A stretch of DNA of 64,000 bases from Elusimicrobia bacterium GWB2_63_22 (GTDB taxonomy: Bacteria; Elusimicrobiota; Elusimicrobia; Elusimicrobiales; UBA9959), in the NCBI GenBank assembly GCA_001799735.1, contig MGUA01000020.1, positions 7,572-71,571 of the forward strand, written 5' to 3'. Positions 3,013 to 34,360 of the stretch are shown piece by piece. Each line of letters opens with the position of its first letter. Position 1 is the first letter of the stretch. The translations under genes and the position numbers were made by a program. Below the pieces are notes generated by a model that saw only the letters and a list, made by a program, of their open reading frames with translations, was not told where the DNA came from and did not search any database.

Positions 3013-3040
3013 CGTTATTTCAGTTTCCGGTCATCGCTGC

Positions 3041-3169
3041 GCCGCCACCGGGGCAGGAACGCAAAAACGTGGTCTCGCACACCGTGCTCGCCACTCCCCG
3101 TCTCGGCCCTCGCGCTTACGCAAGCTCGGGCCTCCGACAGGGTTTTGCTAACCCTGCCCCGGCGTCGGC
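3041..3169. repeat. Possible degenerate, shorter third copy of the palindromic intergenic element seen at 30505 and 41613
   Basis: Flanking inverted repeat: ccggggcagg (3048..3057) pairs with cctgccccgg (3153..3162), extendable to 15/17. Inner segments tcgcacaccgtgctcgc and tctcggcc resemble ctcggcacacagtgcctcgc and tctcggcc of the full copies. The similarity is weak. It overlaps the 3' end of CDS 3116..4180. Confidence 0.3.
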
Positions 3170-5247: not shown

Positions 5248-5320
5248 TCAAGACAAAGCCAACTTTCCCGGCGTTTACGGGTGCCGGGATATTATTATTA
5301 TATAATTAAAGCCTGAAATT

Positions 5321-6676: not shown

Positions 6677-6696
6677 GCCCCGCGCAAAAATATTTC

Positions 6697-7917: not shown

Positions 7918-7960
7918 ACCGCGGGTAGAACTTCCTCAGCCGCGGTTTTTTCGCTAGAAT

Positions 7961-9540: not shown

Positions 9541-9551
9541 ACCCCGCCGGC

Positions 9552-13391: not shown

Positions 13392-14332
13392 ACCGGGCCG
13401 CCGGCGGGCACAATAAGGTCCGCCAGGACCAGCGCACCGGAGAGCTCCGCGCCGGCCGCCACCCGCCCGCCGGGGAAGACTACGGAATCTTTGATCCTGG
13501 CGCCGGCCCCGACAAAGGCGCCGCGCGCCGCTACTGAATTTTCAAGTTCCGCCCCCGGGCCAACCTCGGCGCCGGGGTGCGCGAACCCCCGCAGGCCGCG
13601 CTCAGCCAGCCAGGCGGCGTTGGCCTTCACGATATCCGCGGGATAGGTGATGTTTACGTCCAGCGAGAGCGTCTCCATGGCGGTGACCAGGCCGCCGGCC
13701 GAGATGAGGTTCTGTATCGCGTCGGTCAGTTCTATCTCGCCGCGCAGGGAGGAGGGGCGCGTGTACGCGAGGGCCGGCAGGAAGAGCGGGCCGAAAAAGT
13801 AGACGCCGCAGGGTTTGACCAGGCTGAGCGCCCGGGCCGGCTTCTCTATGATCTTAAGCACGCGCCCCGTCTCGTCCTGGGCTATAGTGCACTCCTTCAG
13901 GATGGCCGCTTCGTCCTCGACGCTGCGCACGGAGAGCACGGCGTCCGAACGCCCCTCGGCCACGGTCTTTACGGCGCCGGAAAAACGCGGCGCCGAATAG
14001 TAGGTGTCGCCCAGCACCAGCGCGAAGGGCCCCCCGGCCAGCCACGGCGCGGCCAGGGAGGCGGCGTGGCCGATGCCGAGGCGCTCGGCCTGCGGCGCGA
14101 TAAAAAGTTCGGAGCCGGTGCCGGCCAGCGCGGCGCGCGCGGCGGCCTCTATGGAGCTGCCGGCGGGGTCCGTGACTATGACGAACCGGCGGCTGCCGGC
14201 GGCCAGGAAGGCTTTAAGGTGCATCTCCAGCAGCGTGGAGTCGCCGACCGGCAGCAGGGCCTTCGGGAAGCGCCTGCCTACCTCGCCCAGGCGCTTGCCG
14301 CTGCCGGCGGTAAGTATGACGACGGGGATCAT
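13388..14332 (-). CDS. Sugar-1-phosphate nucleotidyltransferase with C-terminal left-handed beta-helix
   Basis: ORF-track entry 13388..14626, trimmed to Met99 (MIPVVILTAGSGKRLG, the canonical G-x-G-x-R-L NTP-transferase signature). That ATG forms an ATGA overlap with the upstream stop (14329..14332). The C-terminus has hexapeptide-like repeats. Confidence 0.8.
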   Translation of the reverse strand: MIPVVILTAGSGKRLGEVGRRFPKALLPVGDSTLLEMHLKAFLAAGSRRFVIVTDPAGSSIEAAARAALAGTGSELFIAPQAERLGIGHAASLAAPWLAGGPFALVLGDTYYSAPRFSGAVKTVAEGRSDAVLSVRSVEDEAAILKECTIAQDETGRVLKIIEKPARALSLVKPCGVYFFGPLFLPALAYTRPSSLRGEIELTDAIQNLISAGGLVTAMETLSLDVNITYPADIVKANAAWLAERGLRGFAHPGAEVGPGAELENSVAARGAFVGAGARIKDSVVFPGGRVAAGAELSGALVLADLIVPAGGPV

Positions 14333-15669
14333 TTCAGGATCTTTCCGGCGGCGGCCAGGCCGGCCTCGATGCTGTGGTCCATGTTGTAGACGGCCCATTC
14401 GCCGAAGCGCCCGGCTGAAATTATCCCGGCCCGGGCCAGGGAGCGCAGGCAGGCGCCCGTGTCCTCGGCGTGGCGCGCGTGCGGCACCGGGTAGGCGGGG
14501 CAATGGTCGTAGGCCCAGACGCCCCTGATATCTTTCTTCTTTATTATTCCCAGCCGCAGCAGGGCCGCGGTGACGCGGGCCTGCAGGCCGGCCGGCGCGG
14601 CGGCGCTGCCGCCCGGCAGCGCGCACTCCACGATCAGGGCCTTGCCGCCGGGCACGGCGCGAGGGTTAAAAAGGTCGGCGCGGGTCAGGCGGTAGAACGG
14701 CAGCGCCGGGTCCGGCACGTAGATCCAGTGGTAGGGCGGCAGGTTCACGGCGGAGAGGGCGTAATGCAGGCACAGCACCCGCGTGGCGCGCAGGCGCGGC
14801 GCTGCCTGGCGGCAGTCCCTCAGGCCGGCCAGCGCGACGGCTTTATCCAGCGGCAGGGTGGAGATGAGCCGGCCGTAGCGCACGGGGCCGCGGGAGGTCA
14901 GCACGGTCTTGCGCCGGGCGTCTATGCCCGTCACCGCGGTGCCGCAGAGCGGCGAGACCGGAGCTATTTCGCCCAGCAGGCCCTCTATCACGCCCTCTAT
15001 GCCGCCGGTCTTCGGGTAAATAAACTCCGCGTGCGGCGCCACGTCGCCGCGGGAGGACGGCTTGCCGCCGAGGATGCTCTCGGCCAGGCCGGCCGGGCCG
15101 GGCAGGCGGATCTTGGAGGCGAGCCAGGCGTAACTCATGCCGGCCAGCGGGGTCTGCCACAGTTTCTCGTTGTAAGGCCGGAAAAAAAGGTCCGTTATCC
15201 CGGCGCCCAGTTCGCGCAGGGCGTACTCTTCCAGGTTGCGGGGGCCGGGGGCGGGGCCGCCGGACCGGTTCTCCAGCAGGCTCACCAGCACCCGGCGCCT
15301 GTCTTCGGGCGAAAGCTGGTGAATGTTGTCCTGAAAAGGAAAATCCACCCAGCCGCCCTTCCACATTACCCCCAGCCGGTGGCGGTGCGAGTAGACCGGG
15401 CCGGCGAGCGCCCTGAAGACGCCGGCGGCGCGCCGGTTCCTGGTAAAAAAAACGTGCGGCAGCTCGTCTATCGTCACCCCGCCGGAGCGGTTGGTCTTCA
15501 TGAGGCCGCCCGGCCTGGCGTCCCGCTCGAGCAGCAGTATATCCCGCCGGCCGGCCCGCAGCAGTTCGCGGGCGGCGACCAGGCCGGTAAGGCCGGCGCC
15601 AAGGATCACCACCCCGGCCTTTGCGGGCAGGGAGGCGGGGCGGGCGGCGGCTGCTTTCTTCTTCATCAT
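14329..15669 (-). CDS. FAD/NAD(P)-binding oxidoreductase (amine-oxidase / protoporphyrinogen-oxidase / UDP-galactopyranose-mutase-like fold)
   Basis: 446 aa. N-terminal dinucleotide-binding motif VVILGAGLTGLVAAREL...LLLERDARPGG. The C-terminus has the GRFGEW motif seen in this fold. Confidence 0.7.
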   Translation of the reverse strand: MMKKKAAAARPASLPAKAGVVILGAGLTGLVAARELLRAGRRDILLLERDARPGGLMKTNRSGGVTIDELPHVFFTRNRRAAGVFRALAGPVYSHRHRLGVMWKGGWVDFPFQDNIHQLSPEDRRRVLVSLLENRSGGPAPGPRNLEEYALRELGAGITDLFFRPYNEKLWQTPLAGMSYAWLASKIRLPGPAGLAESILGGKPSSRGDVAPHAEFIYPKTGGIEGVIEGLLGEIAPVSPLCGTAVTGIDARRKTVLTSRGPVRYGRLISTLPLDKAVALAGLRDCRQAAPRLRATRVLCLHYALSAVNLPPYHWIYVPDPALPFYRLTRADLFNPRAVPGGKALIVECALPGGSAAAPAGLQARVTAALLRLGIIKKKDIRGVWAYDHCPAYPVPHARHAEDTGACLRSLARAGIISAGRFGEWAVYNMDHSIEAGLAAAGKILK

Positions 15670-15692
15670 TTAAATATTATCAAATCTGGCGT

Positions 15693-17789
15693 TCAGGCCC
15701 TCTCGGCGCAGAAGACGCTCCATTTGCCGAGCGGCACCGTCCTGGTCAGGCGCCAGCCGGCCGACCGCAGGTCGTTCTCCAGGGTTTCCCGCGCGCACTC
15801 CATCCAACTCCCGGTCAGTTCCCAGCCGGGGCCGAATTCAGGATAGCCCAGGCCGCTGTCGATAATGAATAATTTAGCGCCAAAACCGGCCGAGCCCAGC
15901 AGGCGCCTGAGCAGGCCGACCCGCCCGGCCGCCGGCAGGGCGCCGAGCACCTGCGAAACCACGATATCCCGGAAATGGCCGCCTTTAAGGGCACCGGCCG
16001 CGGCCGCCGGCAGGGCGGGCCTGTCCGCGTAAAACCTGTCCCGGGCCGGCGGGGTCGGGAAAAAGCCGAATTTTTCTTCTACCAGCAGTTCCCGCGAAAA
16101 GTCGCAGCCGGAAAGCCGGGCCGGGTCGGAGGAGGCCGCCCCGCAGACGAGCAGCGAGGGGGAACGCAGCCGTTCGCCTGCTGCCAGGCGCAGCACCCTG
16201 TCGGCCGTGGCGCCGTCCACCCTCTCCCAGGCCAGGCGCGCCTCGCAGAACCCCGCGTAGCGCGCCGCGAAGGCCCGCCTCTCGCGGCCTCGCTCCAGCC
16301 CGGCCAACTCCCCTATCAGCCAGGCCCGGCGTTCCCTGAAAGTGTTCACGTCCAGCCCCGACCAGTCCCCGTCGTCCTGGAACGCGTCCGTCTCGGCCGC
16401 GGCCGCCGCCATGCCTTTGTCCGCCCGGGCCAGCCTGTTCACCCGGCGGCAGAGCGCCACCCCGGGAAACTCGCCGGCGTGGCCCCGCGCGATATGGCGG
16501 AACAGGAAGCCGAAATACTTATCCGCGAAGACGATGTTGGCGGCCAGCGACACTTCCCGGGCCAGCGCGCAGGCGCGCTTCAGCCCGGCCGCGCCGAGCG
16601 ACGGCACGCTGAGAACGTAATAGGGGTCCAGCTCCTGGAACTTAATGCCCAGCCGCGCGGCCGCCTTGCCCAGCGGCGTGCCCGGGTAGACGCGCAGGCG
16701 GTGGAAGAAGAGCCCGGCGTTGACCGAAAGGCCCCAGTCGAAGTTGGCCAGGCAGTTCTTATAGGTGTCGCCCGGCAGGCCTATGATGAAGCTGAGCACC
16801 ACCTTGGCCCGCGGGGCCGCGGCCGCGAGCAGGCCGGTCTTGCGCCGGAGCTCGCCGAAATCCATCCGCCTGTTGATCAGCCGGCAGGTCTCGGGGAAGA
16901 CGCTCTGCACGCCCACGCCGAGAATGAAGGCCCTGTCGTTGAGGAGCGGGATCCTCCGCTCGTCCAGGTTGCGGAGGTCCATCTGTATCTCCACGTTGAT
17001 CCCGCGCCGGGACACCTCCCCGCCCAGCAGCCGCAGCAGCTGCGGCATGGCGGAGTTCTGGCAGAGGTCGGGGTCTATAAGAAAAAGCGTGCGCAGCTCG
17101 GGAAAATCGCTCAGGATGCGGGCCAGTTCGGCCCTGGCCCGCCGGATGCCGAATTCACGGTAATTCCTGGTGATGGCGCAGTAGAGGCAGGACCCGCGGC
17201 AGCCGCGCGAGTTCTCGAAAGGGATGCGCGGGTAGCCCGCCCACTTGAAGAGGCCGCCCAGGTAGGGCGAGGGCACGGTTGAAAGGTCTTTGACGGACTC
17301 GCCGGGTGGATTGACGGCGACGCGCCCGCCTTCGGCGTAGGAAAGGCCCCTGACCCCGGCCAGGTCTCCCCGGCCCAGCAGCGCCCTGAGAACCGCCACG
17401 AAGGCCAGCTCCCCCTCCCCGGCTACGGCGTAGTCCACAGCGCCTCCGGAGAAGATCTCGCCGGCCGGCACCGAACCGGCCAGCGGGCCGCCGAAGATTA
17501 TTTTAGCGCCGCAAAGTTTTTTTACGCCCTGCGCCGCCTTCTTGGTCAGCGCCAGCCCGCCGTAGACAGTAAAGCCGGCCAGGTCCGGCTTCAGCGCCGC
17601 CACGCGCGCCGGAGCCTCCTCCGCGCCTACCCAGGGCTCCAGGATGGTTATCTCCACGCGCCCGCGCAGGAAAGGATCGCGCAGGGCGCAGGCCTTCAGC
17701 AGGCCCGCGGCCAGCGGCAGCAGCCCGTCCGCGTGCAGCGGCGGCACCAGCACCACCCTGTACTTGTCCCGGCGGGCGGCGGCCTTCAC
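15693..17789 (-). CDS. B12-binding radical SAM protein fused to a C-terminal methyltransferase-like domain
   Basis: 698 aa. N-terminal B12-binding-like region, then NSRGCRGSCLYC. The C-terminal ~180 aa (FRDIVVSQVLGALP...KLFIIDSG...) resemble the C-terminal half of a class I SAM methyltransferase fold; that assignment is weak. GTG start, with a GTGA overlap with the upstream stop. Confidence 0.75.
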   Translation of the reverse strand: MKAAARRDKYRVVLVPPLHADGLLPLAAGLLKACALRDPFLRGRVEITILEPWVGAEEAPARVAALKPDLAGFTVYGGLALTKKAAQGVKKLCGAKIIFGGPLAGSVPAGEIFSGGAVDYAVAGEGELAFVAVLRALLGRGDLAGVRGLSYAEGGRVAVNPPGESVKDLSTVPSPYLGGLFKWAGYPRIPFENSRGCRGSCLYCAITRNYREFGIRRARAELARILSDFPELRTLFLIDPDLCQNSAMPQLLRLLGGEVSRRGINVEIQMDLRNLDERRIPLLNDRAFILGVGVQSVFPETCRLINRRMDFGELRRKTGLLAAAAPRAKVVLSFIIGLPGDTYKNCLANFDWGLSVNAGLFFHRLRVYPGTPLGKAAARLGIKFQELDPYYVLSVPSLGAAGLKRACALAREVSLAANIVFADKYFGFLFRHIARGHAGEFPGVALCRRVNRLARADKGMAAAAAETDAFQDDGDWSGLDVNTFRERRAWLIGELAGLERGRERRAFAARYAGFCEARLAWERVDGATADRVLRLAAGERLRSPSLLVCGAASSDPARLSGCDFSRELLVEEKFGFFPTPPARDRFYADRPALPAAAAGALKGGHFRDIVVSQVLGALPAAGRVGLLRRLLGSAGFGAKLFIIDSGLGYPEFGPGWELTGSWMECARETLENDLRSAGWRLTRTVPLGKWSVFCAERA

Positions 17790-18874
17790 CTGGCCGCCCC
17801 GGCGCGCGGCACGTCCGGGTTTCCGGAGCCCATCCCCGTAGCGCGCAGCAGCCGGACGATATCCGTGCTGCTCTTGAGCATGGCTTTAAGGTCGCCGCCG
17901 TGCAGCAGGCTGCTGTAATAGATGCAGAGCAGGCAGCCCAGGAACTCGCGGCGCCCTCCGGCCATGACCGCCTTGAAAATTTTTTCCCTGGACGCCCTGA
18001 CCTTAGCGAGGTCCGGGCCGGTGCGCCAGTCGCCCGCGGCGTAGCGGGCGCGCAGCGCGGGCTCCTGGGCTACGCTGGAAGCCGAGAGCATGGAGCAGGG
18101 GTAGAAATACCCGTCGGGCCCGATGGAGATCTCGCCCTGGCCGCAGAAACTCTCCAGCCAGGGCTTGCCCGCCCGCATGAGCTTGTAGCCGAACCGCGGG
18201 CTGTCCTTGAAAGCCCCGCGGCCAGCGCCCTTAAGCCAGCGGCTGGCGGCGAGCAGCTCGCACTCCAGGCCGGCCAGGTCGGCGCGCGTCCAGCGCTCCT
18301 GCACCGCGAAAGAGAGCCCCAGGTCGCCGGCGCAGAGCGAAGCCAGGAATTTAATATTTTCAAAAAGGCGGGGCGCGGTGGCGCGCGTCACGGTGGCGGA
18401 GATGCCGAGGCTGCGGCGCAGGCTTTTCGGGATGGCCAGCAGGTTGCGCACTACCCGGGCGGAGCTCGGCGCGCCGCCGGCATCGACGCGGTTAAGGTCC
18501 TGGCTGGCGGGCGCCCCGTCCAGGCTTATCTTCAGGTGCACGCCGCTGCGGCGGAACAGCTCCGCCGTGGGGCGGTCCAGCAGCAGGCCGTTGGAAAAAC
18601 ATTCTATCTCCAGGTCCGGCCCGGCCGCGCGCCGCAGCCAGGGCAGCAGCGAGCGCAGCAGTTTTTTATCCAGCAGCGGTTCGCCGCCGGAGATGCTGAT
18701 CTTCTCGGCCCGCGGGCCGGCGGCCCGCAGATACTGCAGCACGGCCAGTTTCATCCTGCGCAGGTCCAGCCGCTGCGCGCGCGAGCGGTCGAGACTGCCG
18801 GAATAGCAGTAGCGGCAGCGCATATTGCACTGGTTGGAAACGCAGATGTCTAGTTCCTGGGGGATGGTGTTCAT
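17786..18874 (-). CDS. Radical SAM protein with twitch/SPASM-like region, HxsC-like by position
   Basis: 362 aa with CNMRCRYC, ISGGEPLL, and CGQGEISIGPDGYFYPCS (the typical SPASM/twitch beta-hairpin motif). It lies 95 nt downstream of the His-Xaa-Ser peptide gene. Confidence 0.8.
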   Translation of the reverse strand: MNTIPQELDICVSNQCNMRCRYCYSGSLDRSRAQRLDLRRMKLAVLQYLRAAGPRAEKISISGGEPLLDKKLLRSLLPWLRRAAGPDLEIECFSNGLLLDRPTAELFRRSGVHLKISLDGAPASQDLNRVDAGGAPSSARVVRNLLAIPKSLRRSLGISATVTRATAPRLFENIKFLASLCAGDLGLSFAVQERWTRADLAGLECELLAASRWLKGAGRGAFKDSPRFGYKLMRAGKPWLESFCGQGEISIGPDGYFYPCSMLSASSVAQEPALRARYAAGDWRTGPDLAKVRASREKIFKAVMAGGRREFLGCLLCIYYSSLLHGGDLKAMLKSSTDIVRLLRATGMGSGNPDVPRAGAAR

Positions 18875-18969
18875 CGGAAACCCGCCGGGGGGCGGGGCTG
18901 CGGGGGAGACGCGGACGGAAGCCGCCCGCGCCCGCGGATGCGGGACGCGGGAGCGCCGTTAAAGCCCTG

Positions 18970-19302
18970 CTAGCACCAGCCGCCGCGGGCGTGCGAACCG
19001 TGGCTGCCGTGCGAACCGTGGCTGCCGTGCGAACCATGGCTGCCGTGCGAGGCGTGCGAACCGTGGCTGCCGTGCGAGCCGTGGCTGCCGTGGCTCTGGT
19101 GGCTGACGTGCGAGGTCGGGTCGGCCGGCGGGTAGAAGTAGTTCTGGTGGATGGTCTGCGCGCTCGCCTGGTCCACCATCGCCGCGCCGAGTATGCCCAG
19201 CGCGAGGCCGGCCTTCACTATGTCGGCGTCAAGCATCTTCCCCTCTTCGCTGTTGAGGAAGAGCTTTATATTCTTTTTTACTCCGGGTTTTTTCTTTTTC
19301 AT
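18970..19302 (-). CDS. His-Xaa-Ser repeat peptide (HxsA-like precursor candidate), 110 aa
   Basis: ORF-track entry 18970..19317 begins at a TTG. Five codons in there is an ATG (19302) preceded by AAGGAG with a 6-nt spacer. Product: MKKKKPGVKKNIKLFLNSEEGKMLDADIVKAGLALGILGAAMVDQASAQTIHQNYFYPPADPTS, then HVS-HQS-(HGS)4-HAS-(HGS)6, then HARGGWC. Confidence 0.8.
   Translation of the reverse strand: MKKKKPGVKKNIKLFLNSEEGKMLDADIVKAGLALGILGAAMVDQASAQTIHQNYFYPPADPTSHVSHQSHGSHGSHGSHGSHASHGSHGSHGSHGSHGSHGSHARGGWC
18994..19110 (-). repeat. Coding tandem repeat: 13 x 9 nt, organised as ~18-nt units gtgcgaaccgtggctgcc, encoding His-Xaa-Ser
   Basis: Direct reading shows gtgcgaaccgtggctgcc repeated with minor variants from ~18991 to ~19110 on the plus strand. 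On the minus strand it is in frame with the peptide CDS. Confidence 0.85.
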
Positions 19303-19313
19303 GGCCGGCTCCT

Positions 19314-20381
19314 TCAATCCTTACCTAAGGCCTTCCTGGCGTTTTTATTCACGTCTTCTATTATTTTCTGCTCTTCTTTCTTGCGGGCCTCTTCGAGGCG
19401 TTTCTTTTTCTCGGGGCTCATATTCTGTTCGTGCGTCGCCTCCGTCTGGGCGAAAGTGCCGGCGATCTTGTCGAGTATGAGCGAGCAGACCGAACCGGAC
19501 TTGGTGGAGAAAACTCCGCACTCCGTCATGTACTTCTCGGGGCAGGCGGAGATGTTGTTGTCCCGGAGCGAGAGGTAAAGCCTGTTGTTGTCCATGCAGT
19601 CCTGGGTCCTGCAGTTGCGGCTGTCGGCGGGGAACGCCTCGCGGCAGCGGCTCTTGTCGCGGGCGGGCGCCATGTCGCAGATATAGGAGAAGCCTTTGGC
19701 CACCTCGCGGCAGAATTCCGGCGGCACCTTGGCGCCCTCCACGCTGTCCCCCGCGAGATACTTGCGGCAGACCGACTCGCCGTTGACGTTGAACCGGCCG
19801 GCGGCGTAAGCGTAGAAGAGCACGCGGCTGGCGGGGTCCACGCACTGGTAATGCGGGCTCCAGAAATATTTATCCTTCTTGTTGAGGGACCCGGGCAGGA
19901 AGTTGCACATGTTCAGGTCGCCGTAGGCCACGGCGTTGCAGGAGAAGAACTGGGCCAGCAGGCTGTAGAGGGCGTCGTTCTCTTCCTTGGTGAAGACGTC
20001 CGGGCCGAAAGTGGCGTTGCCCCAGGCCTTGCCGTGGGAGGAGAGGATGCCGTTGAGGGTTTTGCCGGTGTAGCCTACCGGGGCGCGGGCGAAGTCCGCG
20101 TTGATGGTGGGCAGCGGGCCGGCCCCGGCCATTTCGGCCGGCGCCTTGAAAACCGAAGAGGGCGGGGCCTTTATCGGGGCAGAGGGCCGCGTTTCCTGCG
20201 ACGGCTGCTGGGCCGCGTAGGCGGTGGCCTCGGCCGGCAGCGGTATGCCCGCGGGGGCCTCGGCGACGGGCGTAGCCTGGCCCGCCGGCAGGGCGGGAAC
20301 GGGGCTGCGCCGCTGCATGTACTGCAGGAAAAGCACCAGGGCCAGCAGCCCGACAATAGCGATCACCACTGATTTTTTCAT
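19314..20381 (-). CDS. Membrane-anchored or exported Cys-rich protein (12 Cys) with Lys/Glu-rich C-terminal tail
   Basis: ORF-track entry 19314..20489, trimmed to Met37 (MKKSVVIAIVGLLALVLFL, a signal/anchor sequence). That ATG forms an ATGA overlap with the stop of the HxsD-like gene (20378..20381). A Pro/Ala-rich linker is followed by a ~220-aa domain with 12 Cys. No family recognised. Confidence 0.65.
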   Translation of the reverse strand: MKKSVVIAIVGLLALVLFLQYMQRRSPVPALPAGQATPVAEAPAGIPLPAEATAYAAQQPSQETRPSAPIKAPPSSVFKAPAEMAGAGPLPTINADFARAPVGYTGKTLNGILSSHGKAWGNATFGPDVFTKEENDALYSLLAQFFSCNAVAYGDLNMCNFLPGSLNKKDKYFWSPHYQCVDPASRVLFYAYAAGRFNVNGESVCRKYLAGDSVEGAKVPPEFCREVAKGFSYICDMAPARDKSRCREAFPADSRNCRTQDCMDNNRLYLSLRDNNISACPEKYMTECGVFSTKSGSVCSLILDKIAGTFAQTEATHEQNMSPEKKKRLEEARKKEEQKIIEDVNKNARKALGKD

Positions 20382-20695
20382 TTGCTCCCCCGTAAGCGCG
20401 GCTTGTTTTCGCCGCAGGCCGACAGCAGCGCCTTGGTCACTATCATGCCGGCCAGTTTTGAATTCTTTTTGGCAAGGTCGATACGGCACTGCTGGTTGAG
20501 CGCCTCGTTGGCGAACTCGCCGGCCAGCCGGTCCAGCGCCGCGCCCCCGGACAGCCGCGCGACCAGAACGCCTTTGCCGGGCGAGACTTTTACGCCGCAG
20601 CGCCCGGCGAAGACGTAGGCCGCCAGCTCGACGGCCTCTTTAGAATAGACCGCCGAGTCAAAAACCAGTTCTTTAGCGTCAGTCTGCTTTTTCAT
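20378..20695 (-). CDS. HxsD-like small protein (copy 1)
   Basis: 105 aa. Its size, position next to an HxsB-like rSAM gene (ATGA overlap 20692..20695), and the segment LAGEFANEALNQQCRIDL resemble the LLNDYxLRE-type signature that I recall for the HxsD family. Not verified by HMM. Confidence 0.55.
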   Translation of the reverse strand: MKKQTDAKELVFDSAVYSKEAVELAAYVFAGRCGVKVSPGKGVLVARLSGGAALDRLAGEFANEALNQQCRIDLAKKNSKLAGMIVTKALLSACGENKPRLRGSK

Positions 20696-22146
20696 TTTTT
20701 TGCCACCCAGCTCTCCAGCACCTTTTTGTCGCGGGCGTTCCCCAGCCTTTTAAAAATAGCGGCGAAGACGCCCTTGAACAGGCTGCAGCGGCCGTTGGAG
20801 CGCATATTGCCCCACAGCGAGCCCTGCGCCTCGTAGTTGTACACGGGGCAGACGCCGCAATAGGGCTTATAGGCGCAGCGCGAGCATTCGGGCTGGGCCT
20901 CGAGATTGGAGGAGACCACGCAGGCGCGGGCGGCCGGCGAGGCGAGGACCTTGCGCAGGCTGTCCTTGAACACGTTGCCGACGCGGAAAATGTCGTCGCC
21001 TTCCCAGCCCACCATGCGGCCCTCGTCGCAGGTGAAGAGGTCGCCGTTGTAGTTGTAGGCGATCTGGCCTATGGCCGCGCCGCAGGGGCAGCGCGCGTCC
21101 AGGTAGCCGGGCTCCGTGGCGTTCACTATCTTCTCCAGCATCATGGCGGCGGTCTTTTCGCGCATGACCGTGCCGCGGCGGTTAAGGGCGAGGATGTAGT
21201 CCAGGCAGCGGCCGTAAAATTCCTGGAACTCTTCCGGGGTATAGCCGATCTTGTCCCAGAGGCCGCGGGCGTAGCCGATGGGGGCCAGCGGCCGCACGAA
21301 GATGTCTTCCAGCCCCAGCGCCGCGTACTCTTCTATGATCTCCTTCCAGCGGGGCAGGGACTGGCGGGACACGGTGAGCAACGCGCCGGGTTTGAAGACG
21401 CGGTACTGCTGCGACTGGCGCGCGTGTTTCTCCTGGAAATATTTTATCCAGCGCACCGTGGCGGCGTGGGAGTTGCCGCCGGCGAAGATCCGGTTCTTGT
21501 TATGCAGGTCCGCCGGGCCGTCGAGAGAGGTGCAGATGGAGACCTCATTCTCGAGGAGGAAACGGGCCTTCTCCTCCGTCATCAGGGTAAAATTGGAGAC
21601 CAGCGCCAGCTTGAGTTCCTTGCCGGTGGCGGCGGCCTTTTCGCGGGCGCGCTTCACGGCGGCCTTCAGCACGTCCCAGTTCAGCAGCGGCTCCCCGCCC
21701 TGGAACTCTATGGTTATCAGGGGATTGGGAGAGGTGAAAGCGAAATCCACGCTGGCCAGCGCGGTCCTGCGGTCCATGTCCGTCTTTTTTGCGCCCTCGC
21801 CGGCGGCGCTGGACTGGCAGTAGAGGCATTTATGGTTGCACCTGAGGGTCAGCACCAGTATGTGCAGGCCCGGCCCCTGGTCCAGGTGCGCGTTCAGGGT
21901 GCGCCATTTAGCGGCCAGCCCTTCAAAATCCATGCTCTCCCGGACGAAGCCCGCGGCGGCGAGCCGCTTGAAGAGGGGGTCTTTTTTGGTTATGCCGCCG
22001 GCCATGACCCGCGCGAAATCCTTCTCGCCCAGCAGGGCGTGACAGCCGGCGTCGTTGGTCAGCAGGCGGCCGCCGGCCACCCGCTCCCAGCGGGCCAGGG
22101 GCGTCCTGGCGGACTTTTTATTTTTTACGGGGCTTTTTGGCGCCAT
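20692..22146 (-). CDS. Radical SAM / SPASM-type maturase, HxsB-like
   Basis: 484 aa with CNHKCLYC, IEFQGGEPLL, and a C-terminal Cys block (CPCGAA..., CSRCAYKPYCGVCPVYN, CSLFKG) typical of SPASM auxiliary clusters. Paralog of 539..1930. Confidence 0.8.
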   Translation of the reverse strand: MAPKSPVKNKKSARTPLARWERVAGGRLLTNDAGCHALLGEKDFARVMAGGITKKDPLFKRLAAAGFVRESMDFEGLAAKWRTLNAHLDQGPGLHILVLTLRCNHKCLYCQSSAAGEGAKKTDMDRRTALASVDFAFTSPNPLITIEFQGGEPLLNWDVLKAAVKRAREKAAATGKELKLALVSNFTLMTEEKARFLLENEVSICTSLDGPADLHNKNRIFAGGNSHAATVRWIKYFQEKHARQSQQYRVFKPGALLTVSRQSLPRWKEIIEEYAALGLEDIFVRPLAPIGYARGLWDKIGYTPEEFQEFYGRCLDYILALNRRGTVMREKTAAMMLEKIVNATEPGYLDARCPCGAAIGQIAYNYNGDLFTCDEGRMVGWEGDDIFRVGNVFKDSLRKVLASPAARACVVSSNLEAQPECSRCAYKPYCGVCPVYNYEAQGSLWGNMRSNGRCSLFKGVFAAIFKRLGNARDKKVLESWVAKK

Positions 22147-22579
22147 ACTTGTCTTCCCAAGTGCTCGTCAGTCCCAGCGGGTCCGCGGCTCCCCCGCGGA
22201 CGTCCTCTTTAATTTCTTTCTCGACCTGCGAAATAAGGTCGGCCAGCTCTTTTTCCTGTTCCGGGGTAAGCCCGGAATCCGGGACCGGGGCCGGGGTAGG
22301 CGAGGAGAGCGCCTTCAGCGTAAGGAACTCCCTGAGCTCCCTGTTCTCGGCCGAAATTTTTTCCCGCAGCTTCTCGTCCTCCAGTTCGGCCAGGAACTTC
22401 CCCTTCAGGGCGGCTCCGGACCCGCCGTCTTTAGGCGAGAGCGACACGGCCACGGCGCCGGCGCCGGCGCGGCTTATAAAAACGAAAGCCTCGCCGCTCA
22501 GGGCGTAAGCCGCGTAGCGCGCGGCGTCGAGGCTGTATTTTTTAAGGTCTACCTTAACGTTTGCGATCCTGTTGTCCAA
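22118..22579 (-). CDS. HxsD-like small protein (copy 2) with acidic/Pro-rich C-terminal extension
   Basis: 153 aa. The N-terminal ~100 aa parallel copy 1 (YSLDAARYAAYALSGEAFVFI vs YSKEAVELAAYVFAGRCGVKV) and contain LAELEDEKLREKI (an xLRE motif). It overlaps the HxsB-like start by 29 nt. Confidence 0.55.
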   Translation of the reverse strand: MDNRIANVKVDLKKYSLDAARYAAYALSGEAFVFISRAGAGAVAVSLSPKDGGSGAALKGKFLAELEDEKLREKISAENRELREFLTLKALSSPTPAPVPDSGLTPEQEKELADLISQVEKEIKEDVRGGAADPLGLTSTWEDKYGAKKPRKK

Positions 22580-22612: not shown

Positions 22613-23398
22613 TCAGATTATACGGCAGCAGACCATGGTGCCGCCCCAGTCCTCGCCGAGCACTATGTAGCGGCCGACCCCGGTGGAAGTCTGGTTCAGG
22701 GGCAGGAAGCCCCAGACGCGGGCCACGCCGTCGCCCATATAGCCCATCACGCGGGCCCCCGCCGGGCAGAACGCCTGGGGCCCTATGGTGTACTGCACCC
22801 TGGAGCAGACGTTGCGGATATAGCCGGTGCCGGGGGTCATGATGATGTCGCCGGTCACCGAGATATTGCCGGAGACGCTGAGGCGCTGGCTGGGGAAGGA
22901 GGTGGCTATGCCCACGTTGCCGCCCTGGGTAATGGTCATCTGGGGCGAGGTGATGCGCTGGGTACCGGCCTGGGGCAGGCCGAAGACCCAGTTATTGCTG
23001 GAGTCTATGCCCATGGCCTTTACCACGTTGCCCTGCCGGGTCATCGCGATATAGGTAAGGGTCTGGCCGGAAGCAGGGCGCGTGACGCCGAAGGTGCCGT
23101 AGGACGCCGTGTCGGCATTAGCGCTGCCGTCCGTTATCTGCGTGGCCCCGTGCACGTGCAGTTTGCTGCCGGGCCCGGCGATGTTGATGCCCACGTTGCC
23201 GCCGTCCCTGGCCAGCAGGGTCTGGTTGGTGGTCAGCAGGCTGACATAGCCGCCGTAAGGGGCCGGATAATAAGTGGTAAGGGTTAAAGTCTCGGAGCCG
23301 ATAAAGCCCGGATGCCAGGCCAGCAGAAAGAAAGCAAGCAGAACCGAGATCTGCCTGCGGTTGAAGTTGAGTTTTAAGGATATTTCCGTGGTTTCCAT
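22613..23398 (-). CDS. Membrane-anchored or secreted protein with tail-fibre-like GNVGI repeats and a Cys-containing C-terminal domain
   Basis: ORF-track entry 22613..23434, trimmed to Met13 (METTEISL...), which is preceded by GGGGGAGG. It has a hydrophobic anchor (ISVLLAFFLLAW), TLTLTTYYPAPYGGY, two GGNVGI(N/A)...L.V.G motifs, and 4 Cys in the last 70 aa. Confidence 0.6.
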   Translation of the reverse strand: METTEISLKLNFNRRQISVLLAFFLLAWHPGFIGSETLTLTTYYPAPYGGYVSLLTTNQTLLARDGGNVGINIAGPGSKLHVHGATQITDGSANADTASYGTFGVTRPASGQTLTYIAMTRQGNVVKAMGIDSSNNWVFGLPQAGTQRITSPQMTITQGGNVGIATSFPSQRLSVSGNISVTGDIIMTPGTGYIRNVCSRVQYTIGPQAFCPAGARVMGYMGDGVARVWGFLPLNQTSTGVGRYIVLGEDWGGTMVCCRII

Positions 23399-23463: not shown

Positions 23464-23518
23464 AGTCTAGCAGAAAATATTAATATTTTCAACGGGAAGT
23501 TAAGTATATGTATATACT
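23464..23518 (-). promoter_or_regulatory. Candidate promoter plus two AT-only palindromes upstream of the Hxs-type operon
   Basis: On the minus strand: TTGAAA (23492..23487), 17 nt, then TAGACT (23469..23464). A perfect 18-bp palindrome GAAAATATTAATATTTTC (23473..23490) overlaps the -35 and spacer. A second near-palindrome AGTATAT-gt-ATATACT lies at 23503..23518. Both are striking in a high-GC background. Confidence 0.35.
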
Positions 23519-23907
23519 CAAAGGAGGACCACGGTAAAAGGGGTTTTTGACTTTTCCAGCAGGAAAGCCCGGGCTTCGCCGGCCACATCGGCAAAATCCT
23601 CCAGGTCTTTGGGGGAGGAGGCGAGAAAAGAGGCGGAATTGCTTATTACCAGAGCGTAGCCGCCTGCCGGCAGCTCTTCGTGCAGGGACCGGAGGCAGTC
23701 CAGAAGAGCGTCCCAGTTGCGGCCGAAATAGGCGGGAAATTTGAAACTGTCGGCGAGCGCCTCCATAAGTTCGGCCTTGGCGGGGACCTTTGCCCCGTCT
23801 ATCCAGGCTGTAAAATAAACCGGCGGAGGGAACATTTTATTGATCCCCTCCGCCGTCATGCCGCGGCCCTTAAGGTCCAGGAAAAGTCCTTGTTCCCCGG
23901 GGCCCAT
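23518..23907 (-). CDS. Barstar-family ribonuclease inhibitor
   Basis: 129 aa with ...ELMEALADSFKFPAYFGRNWDALLDCL..., matching the barstar signature (F-P-x-Y-[FY]-G-x-N-x-D-A-L-x-D-C-L). It lies immediately downstream of the RNase gene. Confidence 0.8.
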   Translation of the reverse strand: MGPGEQGLFLDLKGRGMTAEGINKMFPPPVYFTAWIDGAKVPAKAELMEALADSFKFPAYFGRNWDALLDCLRSLHEELPAGGYALVISNSASFLASSPKDLEDFADVAGEARAFLLEKSKTPFTVVLL

Positions 23908-23911
23908 CGGC

Positions 23912-24463
23912 TCAGTAAACTACTTCGAGCAGTATGAAATGCGCGTAATGGTCGGGCGTGTAATAGATCTTCTGGCCGCCGCCGATTATAACGCGCTCGG
24001 AACCGCGGGCGCTCAGGTCGGGCGCCACCTGATAGGTGGTGCCGCCTATCACTACGGTGTGCGGGGCGTTGCCGGTGAGCAGCGTGTACTCTTTGTAGAA
24101 GCCGGCGGGCTGCGCGGGCAGTTTGCCTTCCTTGTTCTTGAAGGTGGTGCCGTCCTGCGAGTAGGGCAGGGGCTTGCCGTTATAAACATCCGAAACGAGC
24201 TTCATGATGGCCTTGATGCGGGCCTGGTCCTTGATGACGGGGGTGAAGTCCTTGCCGGGCTGCGGGGCGAGGCCGGCGGCCTTTTCCGGGGCGGCTACCT
24301 CGGCGGGGACGGGGAGCTCTACCAGGTTGGTATAGGACGAATTATCCAGCAGGTCGCCGAGCGCGGCGGATTTAAGTTCCTGCGCGCCGGCATAAGAAGC
24401 TATCGAAGTGAAAGAGAGGGCGGCTACCGCGAAAACATTTAACCAGAAGTTTTTCTTAAGCAT
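23912..24463 (-). CDS. Secreted barnase / RNase Sa-type (microbial N1/T1 family) ribonuclease
   Basis: ORF-track entry 23912..24484. The likely start is Met8 (MLKKNFWLNVFAVAALSFTSIASYAGA signal peptide), preceded by AAGGA. The C-terminal domain reads ...DGTTFKNKEGKLP...FYKEYTL...RGSERVIIGGG.KIYYTPDHYAHF, with the catalytic-type E, R and H context of barnase-like RNases. Confidence 0.8.
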   Translation of the reverse strand: MLKKNFWLNVFAVAALSFTSIASYAGAQELKSAALGDLLDNSSYTNLVELPVPAEVAAPEKAAGLAPQPGKDFTPVIKDQARIKAIMKLVSDVYNGKPLPYSQDGTTFKNKEGKLPAQPAGFYKEYTLLTGNAPHTVVIGGTTYQVAPDLSARGSERVIIGGGQKIYYTPDHYAHFILLEVVY

Positions 24464-24575
24464 GTTGACGTCCTTTATCCGCATTTTTAACGACAGCGTT
24501 ACAGTTATAGTTTAACTATACTGGCAAACCTTGCCGAGAGCAATAAGACCCAGGCCCGCCTAGGTCTTTAGGCCC

Positions 24576-24610
24576 AAAAAAGAACGGGCCGCGGTTTTTC
24601 TCCGCGGCCC
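24576..24610 (-). terminator. Intrinsic terminator downstream of the PIN-PhoH gene
   Basis: 9-bp GC stem gggccgcgg (24586..24594) pairs with ccgcggccc (24602..24610), with a 7-nt loop. On the minus-strand transcript it is followed by GUUC-UUUUUU (A-run 24576..24581 on the plus strand). Confidence 0.6.
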
Positions 24611-24632
24611 GCCCGTTCCGGCTTTCCCGGGG

Positions 24633-25937: not shown

Positions 25938-26102
25938 TCTTCCTCCGTTGATCGGCTTGGGGGTTTTTGCGCGCCCGGGATGCAACCGTTGGGCGCCCTG
26001 ACCCGTAGTATTTATGTCAGCGATATCAAACTCCGCTAATTCTAGCATAAAATACGGGAAAGACCGATTTATGCCGCGCGGCAAAAATAGTAAGATATCT
26101 AT

Positions 26103-26137
26103 ATTGACACCCTTGCCGGAGATTGACACCTGCCGGA
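26103..26137 (+). promoter_or_regulatory. Tandem direct repeat ATTGACACC(C)TTGCCGGA / ATTGACACC-TGCCGGA upstream of bamA
   Basis: Two near-identical 16-18-nt units at 26103..26120 and 26122..26137, each containing TTGACA, ~30 nt upstream of the bamA ATG. No convincing -10 at 17-nt spacing from either unit, so their role (promoter or regulator site) is open. Confidence 0.3.
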
Positions 26138-26165
26138 AGGGCGCTCCGCCCGATTTTTTAAGGAT

Positions 26166-34350: not shown

Positions 34351-34360
34351 AGGTAAAACC

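What the first reader, a model, noticed from the sequence alone, without database searches (positions are those of the whole stretch)
18970..19302. 110-aa peptide ending in 13 His-Xaa-Ser repeats plus GGWC: a candidate radical-SAM substrate
Seen directly:
- A strong SD (AAGGAG, 6-nt spacer, ATG at 19302).
- A Lys-rich N-terminus, an amphipathic/hydrophobic segment (AGLALGILGAAMV...ASAQ), then YFYPPADPTS.
- An uninterrupted HVS-HQS-(HGS)4-HAS-(HGS)6 tract, ending HARGGWC-stop.
- The gene sits between a 12-Cys exported protein and a twitch/SPASM rSAM gene, with HxsB-like and HxsD-like genes just upstream.
From memory, His-Xaa-Ser repeat proteins (HxsA) with paired rSAM maturases (HxsB/HxsC) and HxsD were defined purely by comparative genomics. 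I know of no chemistry or function assigned to them. Here the repeat protein is a short, stand-alone peptide with a C-terminal Trp-Cys, which makes it a tractable RiPP-like substrate. The repeat could also act as a metal-binding tract (His-rich).
Basis: partly seen in the sequence, partly recalled or inferred. Interest (0 to 1): 0.85.

Follow-up and report, generated by a model that had tools for sequence, protein, structure and literature searches.

The report
HxsA4 His-Xaa-Ser repeat peptide, Elusimicrobia

Summary
Window 18970..19302 (-) encodes a 110-aa peptide with 13 uninterrupted His-Xaa-Ser units ending HARGGWC, behind an AAGGAG Shine-Dalgarno.

It scores above the curated cut-off of NCBIfam NF038313, "His-Xaa-Ser repeat protein HxsA4". 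A bona fide HxsB radical-SAM/SPASM maturase and two HxsD-like proteins lie just upstream.

HxsA4 relatives in Elusimicrobiota, Omnitrophota, CPR bacteria and DPANN archaea share four features:
- an FLxSEEGK leader;
- a signal-like hydrophobic segment;
- 4-29 neutral HxS units;
- a C-terminal Trp, Trp-Cys or Tyr.

HxsB sits next to the peptide gene in 71 of 83 related loci.

- Function and partial chemistry are now published for the canonical Hxs system (Li et al., Nat Commun 2026): antiphage defence, an HxsB/C/D-dependent +8 Da modification and N-terminal processing.
- The rSAM gene directly downstream (17786..18874) is not HxsC. It is lineage-specific.
- Short size and a Trp-Cys end are normal for HxsA4.

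This variant lacks HxsC next to HxsB, the peptidoglycan-binding domain and basic repeats, so the E. coli mechanism cannot simply be transferred.

Verdict: a new member of a known but experimentally untouched subtype, and a good short substrate for solving HxS chemistry. Interest is moderate.

The parts
18970..19302 (-). hxsA4: 110-aa His-Xaa-Ser repeat precursor/effector (stop codon 18970..18972)
   Evidence: Translation. NCBIfam NF038313 HxsA4 66.6 bits against cut-off 55. 349 homologues. The identical protein is found on 12 groundwater metagenome contigs.
19309..19314 (-). Shine-Dalgarno AAGGAG, 6 nt before the ATG; overlaps the stop codon of the upstream Cys-rich gene
   Evidence: Read directly from the sequence.
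19213..19302 (-). Residues 1-30: Lys-rich N-terminus plus the conserved leader motif K-x-I-x-x-F-L-x-S-E-E-G-K. This is the best-conserved part of the family and the putative recognition sequence for HxsB/HxsD (inferred).
   Evidence: In alignment A1, E19 is invariant and K10, F15, L16, E20, G21 and K22 are >=90% conserved. The motif found 101 confirmed loci in GTDB genomes.
19159..19212 (-). Residues 31-48: hydrophobic segment AGLALGILGAAMV followed by DQ-ASA. It looks like a Sec signal h-region with an AxA-type cleavage site before Q49 (inferred; no predictor was run).
   Evidence: Sequence. The same hydrophobic-stretch-then-small-x-small pattern precedes the conserved H-x-N-x-F across the family.
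19111..19158 (-). Residues 49-64: QTIHQNYFYPPADPTS, containing the family-wide H-x-N-x-F motif at the predicted mature N-terminus
   Evidence: H52 is >=90% conserved.
18994..19110 (-). Residues 65-103: 13 uninterrupted His-Xaa-Ser units (HVS, HQS, 4x HGS, HAS, 6x HGS), net charge 0. These are the proposed modification sites.
   Evidence: DNA tandem array of period 18/63 nt. Repeat number ranges from 4 to 29 in homologues.
18973..18993 (-). Residues 104-110: HARGGWC C-terminal tail (conserved RGGWC ending)
   Evidence: Of 94 leader-bearing homologues, 26 end GGWC, 40 end in W and 9 in Y.
19314..20381 (-). 355-aa protein: N-terminal membrane anchor, Pro/Ala-rich linker, all-alpha domain with 12 Cys, Lys/Glu-rich C-terminal helix. 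It is the most frequent immediate neighbour of hxsA4. Function unknown.
   Evidence: No Pfam, NCBIfam or PADLOC family. An iterated profile finds relatives in 49 of 83 HxsA4 loci, including L010, where no HxsB lies within 10 kb. 10 of the 12 Cys columns are invariant and the other two >=90% conserved. AF2 model pLDDT 65 with no PDB fold match.
20378..20695 (-). HxsD-like protein, short form (105 aa)
   Evidence: TIGR03976 37.2 bits, E 2.7e-9, below cut-off 50; NF038315 HxsD_rel 28 bits against cut-off 41. Precomputed PF27806 HxsD hit. Aligns along its whole length with Aeromonas HxsD.
20692..22146 (-). hxsB: radical SAM/SPASM maturase (484 aa, CxxxCxxC at residue 102)
   Evidence: TIGR03978 473 bits against cut-off 370, full length. 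SPASM PF13186. 35% identical to annotated Aeromonas HxsB. Nearest solved structures are CteB (5wgg) and anSME. Present at >=250 bits in 71 of 83 HxsA4 loci.
22118..22579 (-). HxsD-like protein, long form (153 aa) with a conserved C-terminal tail (DPLG..WE.KYG)
   Evidence: TIGR03976 42.9 bits, E 4.7e-11, below cut-off 50. PF27806. Alignment A3.
22613..23398 (-). 261-aa membrane-anchored protein (YYPAPYGGY motif, C-terminal CC), first gene of the conserved module. Function unknown.
   Evidence: Profile hits upstream of HxsD in about 30 HxsA4 loci. No family.
23464..23492 (-). Sigma-70-like promoter match (TTGAAA-17-TAGACT with TG) upstream of the module. Consensus match only.
17786..18874 (-). 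362-aa radical SAM protein with a twitch-like C-terminal Cys motif, directly downstream of hxsA4. A lineage-specific accessory gene, not HxsC.
   Evidence: Best NCBIfam hit is PapB, 89 bits against cut-off 340. E = 2.7 against Aeromonas HxsC. Orthologues in only 5 loci. About 20 protein clusters, the named ones Elusimicrobiota, labelled only 'radical SAM protein'.
3116..5247 (-). Two tandem rSAM genes (3116..4180 and 4177..5247). Their best family hits are HxsC4 and HxsC, far below the cut-offs. They are possible distant HxsC counterparts, 14 kb from hxsA4.
   Evidence: NF038332 90/105 bits against cut-off 500; TIGR03977 83/94 bits against cut-off 268. Related genes at >=150 bits occur in 11-13 other HxsA4 loci.
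539..1930 (-). HxsB paralogue (463 aa), sub-threshold
   Evidence: TIGR03978 315 bits against cut-off 370. 37% identical to the window's HxsB. Paralogues at >=250 bits occur in 11 other loci.

Best explanation
The gene encodes the precursor/effector peptide of an HxsA4-type His-Xaa-Ser system in an uncultured groundwater Elusimicrobiaceae bacterium.

Shown:
- It belongs to the curated HxsA4 family.
- It is co-transcriptionally packed with HxsB, two HxsD homologues, a Cys-rich membrane protein and a 261-aa membrane protein.
- This module recurs across phyla.

Inferred mechanism:
1. In the cytoplasm, the conserved N-terminal leader (K-x-I-x-x-FLxSEEGK) docks the peptide onto the radical-SAM/SPASM enzyme HxsB, assisted by HxsD-like proteins.
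2. HxsB abstracts hydrogen within the His-Xaa-Ser units and installs a covalent change, most likely a cross-link or oxidation involving His and Ser. This would be iterated over up to 13 units. The conserved C-terminal Trp(-Cys) may be a further site. This parallels the +8 Da change mapped to an SHRSS unit of E. coli HxsA.
3. The internal hydrophobic segment then acts as a Sec-type signal. Cleavage after A46-S47-A48 would release a mature peptide of about 62 residues, His-rich and uncharged, into the periplasm. There the co-conserved Cys-rich membrane-anchored protein is its likely partner.

Biological role is the weakest step. By homology with E. coli HXS, an envelope-level barrier to incoming phage DNA is the leading guess (about 0.3). 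The peptide lacks the peptidoglycan anchor and the basic residues on which that model rests, so metal binding or another envelope function is nearly as likely.
For: Family membership:
- NF038313 66.6 bits against cut-off 55, and HxsB TIGR03978 473 against 370.
- HxsD homology at E 3e-9 and 5e-11, with precomputed PF27806 hits and a full-length alignment.

Operon packing:
- An 11-nt gap with the Shine-Dalgarno over the preceding stop, and overlapping start/stop codons through HxsD-HxsB-HxsD.
- A promoter-like site upstream of the first module gene.

Conserved linkage:
- An HxsB orthologue (>=250 bits) lies within a few kb in 71 of 83 loci. HxsD-like genes are in 63 and the Cys-rich protein in 49.
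- Taxa include Elusimicrobiota, CPR, DPANN, Omnitrophota and Planctomycetia.

Leader:
- It is the most conserved segment of the peptide; the only other invariant column is a repeat His, H98.
- A signal-like segment with small-x-small before the conserved HxNxF is family-wide.

Precedent:
- A +8 Da change maps to an HxS unit.
- Every HxS unit is required for function (PMC13128918).
- rSAM/SPASM enzymes HaaB and HtkB make His-C2 to C-beta cross-links in three-residue motifs (PMC11499958 abstract).
- HxsB's nearest solved relatives are the peptide cross-linker CteB and the Ser/Cys oxidiser anSME.
Against: - No experiment or expression data exist for this subtype; no paper mentions HxsA4 or HxsC4.
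- Both HxsD-like proteins fall below the curated NCBIfam cut-offs.
- There is no HxsC. HxsC is essential in E. coli and is the proposed catalyst of the +8 Da step. The adjacent rSAM is unrelated to it, and the only HxsC-like genes are distant and weak.
- Some HxsA4 genes have no HxsB within 10 kb (L010 and L067).
- The signal-peptide reading is by eye. A 30-residue acidic/basic n-region is atypical, and the segment could instead be a membrane anchor.
- The repeats are neutral (x = K/R in 3 of 935 units) and no peptidoglycan-binding domain is present, which undercuts transfer of the DNA-binding defence model.
- The locus sits among core envelope genes (BamA, OmpH, LpxD), not in an obvious defence island. 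PADLOC finds nothing beyond generic rSAM similarity.
Confidence: 0.6

Rival explanations
1. Metal-binding peptide or metallophore. The exported (His-Gly-Ser)n tract, cross-linked or not, chelates Ni, Zn, Cu or Co in the envelope. The 12-Cys membrane protein acts as receptor or redox partner.
For: - 15 His in the 62-residue predicted mature part, with net charge 0.
- His and Ser are the conserved positions, while x is a small residue (G/S/A 84%).
- In several homologues the predicted cleavage puts His at position 1-3 of the mature peptide (by eye).
- A Cys-rich partner is conserved next to the peptide, even where HxsB is absent (L010).
- Copper-binding RiPPs with His cross-links are a precedent (PMC10206099 title and abstract).
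Against: - No metal transporter, chaperone or metalloregulator was seen in the module.
- Plain His-rich tracts need no radical-SAM maturase, yet HxsB is linked in 71 of 83 loci.
- The only tested homologous system has a defence phenotype (PMC13128918).
Confidence: 0.22
2. Scaffold for a small peptide-derived cofactor or natural product, in the manner of PQQ or mycofactocin. The many neighbouring radical-SAM, B12-rSAM, FAD and sugar-nucleotide enzymes tailor the peptide heavily. The C-terminal aromatic residue or the repeats are then excised as the active product.
For: - There are 9 rSAM genes between 539 and 22146 in the window.
- HxsA4 loci of >=15 kb carry a median of 6 CxxxCxxC ORFs per ~20 kb, including loci from other phyla.
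- A conserved C-terminal W/WC/Y recalls the C-terminal Tyr of mycofactocin precursor MftA (own knowledge).
Against: - Apart from HxsB, none of the window's rSAM families is consistently conserved with HxsA4. The families of 17786..18874 and the two B12-rSAMs occur only in close relatives.
- No peptidase or exporter typical of such pathways is present in the module.
- The peptide carries a signal-like segment, which fits an exported protein product better.
- Groundwater Elusimicrobia genomes are rich in rSAM clusters linked to other pathways (bioRxiv 10.1101/765248).
Confidence: 0.12
3. Unmodified structural repeat protein. The (Gly-Ser-His)n reading makes it a short collagen-like Gly-X-Y tract, or simply a low-complexity linker.
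For: Sub-threshold hits to Pfam Collagen (20 bits, cut-off 27) and to Scl adhesins.
Against: - Gly is not the conserved position. x = G in only 51% of units, and HAS, HVS and HQS interrupt the Gly periodicity in this very peptide.
- The invariant residues are His and Ser.
- Obligate linkage to HxsB argues for modification.
Confidence: 0.03
4. Spurious ORF in GC-rich repetitive DNA.
For: Several overlapping ORFs exist in other frames.
Against: - Score above the curated HMM cut-off.
- Hundreds of homologues with the same frame, leader, repeats and C-terminus across phyla.
- A strong Shine-Dalgarno.
- The same 110-aa gene was called on 12 independent assemblies.
Confidence: 0.01

Closest known systems
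NCBIfam NF038313 'His-Xaa-Ser repeat protein HxsA4', with companion models NF038332 HxsC4 and NF038315 HxsD_rel
   Same: The peptide scores above the curated cut-off. It shares the leader, hydrophobic segment, neutral HxS repeats and RGGWC end with proteins already labelled HxsA4 in Elusimicrobiales and Omnitrophota MAGs.
   Different: Nothing essential; it is a member. No gene here reaches the HxsC4 cut-off (best 105 bits against 500), and the HxsD-like genes are sub-threshold. The family is defined by comparative genomics only, and no paper mentions it.
E. coli HXS antiphage system HxsD-HxsB-HxsC-HxsA (Li et al., Nat Commun 2026, PMC13128918)
   Same: - Homologous HxsB (35% identity to the annotated HxsB of the canonical Aeromonas hxsDBCA operon) and HxsD.
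- A substrate with an N-terminal export signal and tandem HxS units.
- Maturation expected in the cytoplasm before export.
   Different: - No HxsC next to HxsB.
- Gene order is 261aa-D-B-D'-CysRich-A4 instead of D-B-C-A.
- The peptide is 110 aa, against 192 aa in the canonical Aeromonas HxsA (residues up to 214 are mapped in E. coli HxsA).
- No peptidoglycan-binding domain.
- 13 neutral units (x = G/A/V/Q) instead of 5 basic units (x mostly R).
- A conserved FLxSEEGK leader and a Trp-Cys end.
- An extra Cys-rich membrane protein.
- Embedded in an rSAM-rich region.
- Hosts are Elusimicrobiota, CPR and DPANN rather than Pseudomonadota (99.7% for the canonical system).
His-containing triceptide cyclophane synthases HaaB and HtkB (rSAM/SPASM; PMC11499958)
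   Same: rSAM/SPASM enzymes acting on three-residue motifs that begin with His, forming His-C2 to C-beta links. This is a plausible chemical model for an iterated His-x-Ser modification.
   Different: HxsB's best non-Hxs family hits are PapB, nif11 and QhpD-type maturases. The reported E. coli mass shift is +8 Da, not the -2 Da of a simple cross-link.
CteB (PDB 5wgg) and anaerobic sulfatase-maturing enzyme anSME (PDB 4k36-4k39)
   Same: Closest solved structures to HxsB by sequence (E 1e-21 and 6e-11). Both are SPASM enzymes that abstract H from peptide Cys/Ser/Thr-type residues.
   Different: Distant relatives. Their substrates and products (thioether; formylglycine) are not established for HxsB.

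Membership tests
HxsA4 (NCBIfam NF038313) | Whole-protein score at or above the curated cut-off (55 bits) | tested here: met
   66.6 bits, E 2.7e-18, residues 7-104 on profile positions 4-90 of 93.
HxsA4 (NCBIfam NF038313) | Architecture: Lys-rich N-terminus with FLxSEEGK, hydrophobic segment, HxNxF, tandem HxS units, aromatic C-terminus | tested here: met
   Alignment A1 with 31 homologues. C-terminus statistics.
HxsA4 (NCBIfam NF038313) | Genomic linkage to an HxsB-type maturase | tested here: met
   HxsB lies 1.4 kb upstream on the same strand. The same linkage holds in 71 of 83 related loci.
Hxs system (HxsA-D as defined by Haft and Basu, and E. coli HXS) | HxsB radical SAM/SPASM maturase (TIGR03978, cut-off 370) | tested here: met
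   473.3 bits, full length. SPASM domain.
Hxs system (HxsA-D as defined by Haft and Basu, and E. coli HXS) | HxsC radical SAM partner adjacent to HxsB (TIGR03977, cut-off 268; or HxsC4 NF038332, cut-off 500) | tested here: not met
   - No gene next to HxsB or HxsA4 resembles HxsC.
- 17786..18874 against Aeromonas HxsC gives E = 2.7, and HxsC is absent from its top NCBIfam hits.
- Only 3116..4180 and 4177..5247 hit HxsC/HxsC4, at 83-105 bits.
Hxs system (HxsA-D as defined by Haft and Basu, and E. coli HXS) | HxsD small protein (TIGR03976, cut-off 50) | tested here: inconclusive
   Two candidates score 37.2 and 42.9 bits, below the cut-off, with E 2.7e-9 and 4.7e-11. Both carry precomputed PF27806 HxsD hits and align end to end with Aeromonas HxsD. 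They are homologues, but not equivalogs by the curated score.
E. coli-type HXS antiphage effector HxsA (TIGR03979 type) | Peptidoglycan-binding domain C-terminal to the repeats | tested here: not met
   The peptide ends 7 residues after the repeats. No Pfam domain apart from a sub-threshold Collagen hit. No similarity to Aeromonas HxsA (E 3.2).
E. coli-type HXS antiphage effector HxsA (TIGR03979 type) | Basic HxS units (x mostly Arg), proposed to bind DNA electrostatically | tested here: not met
   The window tract has net charge 0, against +4 in the Aeromonas tract. K/R at x occurs in 3 of 935 units family-wide.
E. coli-type HXS antiphage effector HxsA (TIGR03979 type) | Protection against phage; HxsB/C/D-dependent cleavage and +8 Da modification | not testable with these tools
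   Requires expression, MS and phage challenge. PADLOC 2023 has no Hxs model and gave only generic viperin-like hits to the rSAMs.
Bacterial collagen-like proteins (Pfam PF01391) | Gly at every third residue over a long tract; score at or above 27.2 bits | tested here: not met
   20.1 bits. Gly periodicity is broken by HVS, HQS and HAS, and x = G in only 51% of units in the family.

The most novel reading that the evidence does not exclude
The HxsA4 module is not a copy of the E. coli defence system. It would be a distinct envelope system of ultra-small groundwater lineages (Elusimicrobiota, Omnitrophota, CPR, DPANN). In it, a portable 'FLxSEEGK leader + signal' cassette delivers His/Ser- or Cys-rich cores to HxsB and a changing set of further radical-SAM enzymes. 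The product is an iteratively cross-linked, exported poly-imidazole peptide that works together with a dedicated Cys-rich membrane protein, for example in metal or redox handling or in cell-cell contact. It would act by a mechanism that needs neither peptidoglycan anchoring nor positive charge.
Probability: 0.3. Interest if true: 0.7.

Novelty: new member of a known kind. Interest (0 to 1): 0.42.

Why it matters
The chemistry installed on His-Xaa-Ser repeats is still unsolved. The 2026 E. coli study could only report a +8 Da shift. It could not reconstitute the reaction, partly because its HxsA (more than 200 residues) is insoluble.

HxsA4 peptides offer a short substrate with 13 near-identical units and a clear leader. 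Any per-unit modification would be multiplied and easy to see by mass spectrometry, and the enzyme set could be reduced to HxsB plus HxsD-like proteins.

Biologically, the subtype extends Hxs systems from Pseudomonadota to Elusimicrobiota, CPR bacteria and DPANN archaea. Some of these lack an outer membrane, so the subtype tests whether 'periplasmic gatekeeping' of phage DNA is the general role of HxS repeats or only one use of them.

For annotation, the result is ordinary: the gene is correctly nameable as HxsA4.

Tried and rejected
- **PADLOC scan of ten locus proteins.** It gave only generic viperin-like similarity for the rSAMs and one PDC-M51A hit for the B12-rSAM, so there is no known defence-system call.
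- **Pfam on the peptide.** Only a sub-threshold Collagen hit; collagen was rejected because Gly is not the conserved position.
- **Terminator or attenuator after hxsA4.** No T-tract terminator was found. The 95-nt intergenic fold is no better than shuffles (z = -1.35).
- **Cys-rich neighbour.**
  - Only 14 close homologues were found; those with a source name are Elusimicrobiota.
  - The AF2 model is mediocre (pLDDT 65, all-alpha).
  - Foldseek against PDB gave nothing at E < 1.
- **Adjacent rSAM as HxsC.** Rejected by direct comparison with an annotated Aeromonas HxsC and by its narrow distribution.
- **C-terminal domain fused to HxsA4 in CPR genomes.** No Pfam family.
- **Leader-only search of 1.8 billion representatives.** Only 26 hits because the query is short, and one of them (a PPR protein) is spurious. 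It showed other cores behind the same leader but gave no census.
- **Literature.** Searches for HxsA2, HxsA3, HxsA4 and HxsC4 returned nothing. The Elusimicrobia rSAM/nitrogenase-paralogue clusters were considered as context, but no link was established.
Full report
**1. The observation**

The minus strand of window 18970..19302 reads AAGGAG (19314..19309), a 6-nt spacer, ATG (19302), then 110 codons. The product is MKKKKPGVKKNIKLFLNSEEGKMLDADIVKAGLALGILGAAMVDQASAQTIHQNYFYPPADPTS followed by HVS-HQS-(HGS)4-HAS-(HGS)6 and HARGGWC.

- All 13 His-Xaa-Ser units are contiguous.
- The DNA is a tandem array of period 18/63 nt.
- The Shine-Dalgarno overlaps the stop codon of the preceding gene.
- The other ORFs overlapping this stretch are off-frame products of 63% GC DNA.

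**2. What it is**

NCBIfam scan:

| Gene (minus strand) | Best relevant model | Score | Cut-off |
|---|---|---|---|
| 18970..19302 peptide | NF038313 HxsA4 | 66.6 bits | 55 |
| 20692..22146 | TIGR03978 HxsB | 473 bits | 370 |
| 20378..20695 | TIGR03976 HxsD | 37.2 bits (E 2.7e-9) | 50 |
| 22118..22579 | TIGR03976 HxsD | 42.9 bits (E 4.7e-11) | 50 |

- HxsB also carries a SPASM domain.
- Both HxsD candidates carry precomputed PF27806 HxsD hits. They align end to end with an annotated Aeromonas HxsD.
- The exact peptide occurs on 12 groundwater metagenome contigs, including Rifle aquifer assemblies.
- It is 100% identical in a GTDB MAG labelled uncultured Elusimicrobiaceae.

**3. The family**

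A protein search returned 349 relatives at E<=1e-3. Several are already labelled 'HxsA4' in Elusimicrobiales and Omnitrophota MAGs. Sequences and alignment show a fixed architecture:

- a basic N-terminus with the nearly invariant K-x-I-x-x-F-L-x-S-E-E-G-K;
- a 13-16-residue hydrophobic stretch ending in a small-x-small motif;
- a conserved H-x-N-x-F;
- a variable number of HxS units;
- an aromatic end.

Among 94 leader-bearing homologues:

- unit number ranges from 4 to 29;
- x is G (51%), S (17%) or A (16%), and K/R in only 3 of 935 units;
- the C-terminus is W (40), GGWC (26) or Y (9).

**4. Conserved neighbourhood**

Context was read for homologues from other lineages. A GTDB-wide pattern scan gave 79 further loci. 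I called ORFs in all 83 loci and searched them with the window proteins and iterated profiles.

| Neighbour | Loci with it (of 83) |
|---|---|
| HxsB orthologue (>=250 bits) beside the peptide gene | 71 |
| HxsD-like genes | 63 |
| Relatives of the 12-Cys membrane protein 19314..20381 | 49 |
| Relatives of the 261-aa membrane protein 22613..23398 | about 30 |

- Most HxsB exceptions are contigs cut off upstream, or Myxococcota hits that match only the repeat region.
- The Cys-rich relative is present in L010, where no HxsB lies within 10 kb.
- The recurrent module is therefore 261aa - HxsD(long) - HxsB - HxsD(short) - Cys-rich - HxsA4, all on one strand with overlapping or near-touching boundaries.
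- A sigma-70-like site lies upstream at 23492..23464.
- Hosts are mostly Elusimicrobiota. They also include Saccharibacteria/Nealsonbacteria/Azambacteria (CPR), Woese- and Nanoarchaeota (DPANN), Omnitrophota, Planctomycetia and a few Deltaproteobacteria MAGs.

**5. The second radical-SAM enzyme**

The gene directly downstream (17786..18874) has the CxxxCxxC motif and a C-terminal Cx11Gx4C...CxxC pattern of the twitch type, read. Three results argue against it as a conserved partner:

- Its best family hit is PapB, at 89 bits against a cut-off of 340.
- It shows no specific similarity to Aeromonas HxsC (E 2.7).
- Its orthologues exist in only 5 of 83 loci, and in about 20 protein clusters whose named members are Elusimicrobiota.

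It is a lineage-specific accessory, not a conserved HxsA4 maturase.

The wider region is an rSAM island. There are nine rSAM genes between 539 and 22146:

- an HxsB paralogue at 539..1930 (315 bits, below the cut-off);
- two tandem genes at 3116..5247 whose best hits are HxsC4 (90 and 105 bits, cut-off 500) and HxsC (83 and 94 bits, cut-off 268);
- two B12-rSAMs and a HemN-like enzyme.

HxsA4 loci of >=15 kb carry a median of 6 CxxxCxxC ORFs per ~20 kb. Only HxsB is consistently conserved.

**6. What is already known**

Li et al. (Nat Commun 2026, PMC13128918) showed the following for E. coli HxsD-B-C-A:

- It blocks 110 of 113 coliphages at the DNA-entry step.
- HxsA has a signal peptide, five basic HxS units and a peptidoglycan-binding domain.
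- HxsB, HxsC and HxsD are each needed for N-terminal processing and periplasmic accumulation.
- A +8 Da change maps to the SHRSS unit.
- Replacing any HxS unit with alanines abolishes defence.
- HxsC binds HxsD.
- In vitro reconstitution failed, and the chemistry remains undefined.
- 99.7% of those systems are in Pseudomonadota.

No paper mentions HxsA2, HxsA3, HxsA4 or HxsC4.

**7. How it most likely works**

Shown: family membership, operon packing, and obligate linkage to HxsB.

Inferred:
- The leader is the docking element. It is the most conserved part of the peptide.
- HxsB (with HxsD-like proteins) acts in the cytoplasm on the HxS units, probably iteratively. Its nearest solved relatives are the peptide cross-linker CteB and the Ser/Cys oxidiser anSME.
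- His-C2 to C-beta cyclophanes made by HaaB and HtkB give a chemical precedent.
- The hydrophobic segment plus ASA|Q then directs Sec export and cleavage. This would yield a peptide of about 62 residues with 15 His and no net charge.
- The co-conserved Cys-rich membrane protein is a likely periplasmic partner. Ten of its 12 Cys columns are invariant and the other two are >=90% conserved. It has no recognisable family or fold.

Biological role is the weak step:
- Defence is suggested by homology.
- Against it, this subtype lacks HxsC next to HxsB, the peptidoglycan anchor and the positive charge.
- It also sits among BamA/OmpH/LpxD core genes.
- It occurs in organisms without an outer membrane.

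Metal binding and a multi-rSAM-tailored product are live rivals. A collagen-like protein and a spurious ORF are rejected (section 3).

**8. Comparison and novelty**

The locus is a member of HxsA4 by every feature I could test. It works like, but is not a member of, the E. coli-type HXS system:

| Feature | Result |
|---|---|
| HxsB | met |
| HxsD | inconclusive at curated cut-offs |
| HxsC | not met |
| Peptidoglycan-binding domain | not met |
| Basic repeats | not met |

Novelty is 'new member of a known kind'. The subtype itself is catalogued but uncharacterised.

Interest is moderate (0.42). A specialist would not be surprised. However, the 13-unit short peptide is a practical route to the unsolved HxS chemistry, and the phylogenetic spread raises the question of whether phage exclusion is the general function.

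**9. Limits**

- There are no expression data, no signal-peptide predictor and no complex modelling.
- The co-occurrence counts rest on my own ORF calling and HMMER thresholds. They are lower bounds for divergent proteins; for example, the Cys-rich proteins of L012 and L013 were recognised by eye but missed by the profile.

Noticed in passing
window 539..22146 (also 48408..49430): Radical-SAM island. There are nine rSAM genes in 22 kb: HxsB, an HxsB paralogue, two HxsC4-like, two PapB-like/twitch, two B12-binding and one HemN-like. FAD-oxidoreductase, sugar-nucleotidyltransferase and GT2 genes are interspersed. Related HxsA4 loci have a median of 6 rSAM-like ORFs per ~20 kb. Whether these act on HxsA4 or on something else is unknown.
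   Followed up: partly
L067 9968..10558; proteins P0166, P0168, P0173, P0176, P0177: The same FLxSEEGK leader plus hydrophobic segment is attached to quite different cores that lack long HxS runs. These cores are Cys/Thr-rich or HSSCHSSC-type, in proteins of 115-196 aa. In L067 no HxsB lies within 10 kb. The leader looks like a portable cassette.
   Followed up: partly
L044 9992..11485 (Candidatus Nealsonbacteria complete genome CP179887, 689 kb) and L046 9998..11527: In CPR genomes the HxsA4 leader and about 25 HxS units are fused to a ~340-aa C-terminal domain with no Pfam family. HxsD and HxsB lie directly upstream.
   Followed up: partly
window 22613..23398 (-): A 261-aa protein with an N-terminal membrane segment, a YYPAPYGGY motif, GNVGI-type repeats and a C-terminal ...MVCCRII. 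It is conserved as the first gene of the module in about 30 loci and has no family assignment.
   Followed up: partly
window 19314..20381 (-): An orphan 12-Cys, all-alpha, membrane-anchored protein with a long Pro/Ala linker and a Lys/Glu-rich C-terminal helix. It is paired with hxsA4 even where HxsB is absent (L010). It has no fold match in PDB.
   Followed up: yes
window 23518..24484 (-): A barnase-like ribonuclease and barstar gene pair lies immediately upstream of the Hxs module. The same arrangement (BamA-OmpH ... barnase-barstar-module) is kept in the distantly related Elusimicrobiales locus L011. A strong intrinsic terminator sits at 24614..24582.
   Followed up: no
window 24633..27788 (-): The 1051-aa ORF in the mechanical list over-extends a PhoH/PIN-domain gene of about 434 aa. 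Gene callers on the matching contigs start it much later.
   Followed up: no
window 34301..41639 and 47241..49049 (-), 53087..54439 (+): Several large ORFs (450-705 aa) have no Pfam family at E<=1e-5. They were not examined further, and some may be off-frame artefacts of GC-rich DNA.
   Followed up: no
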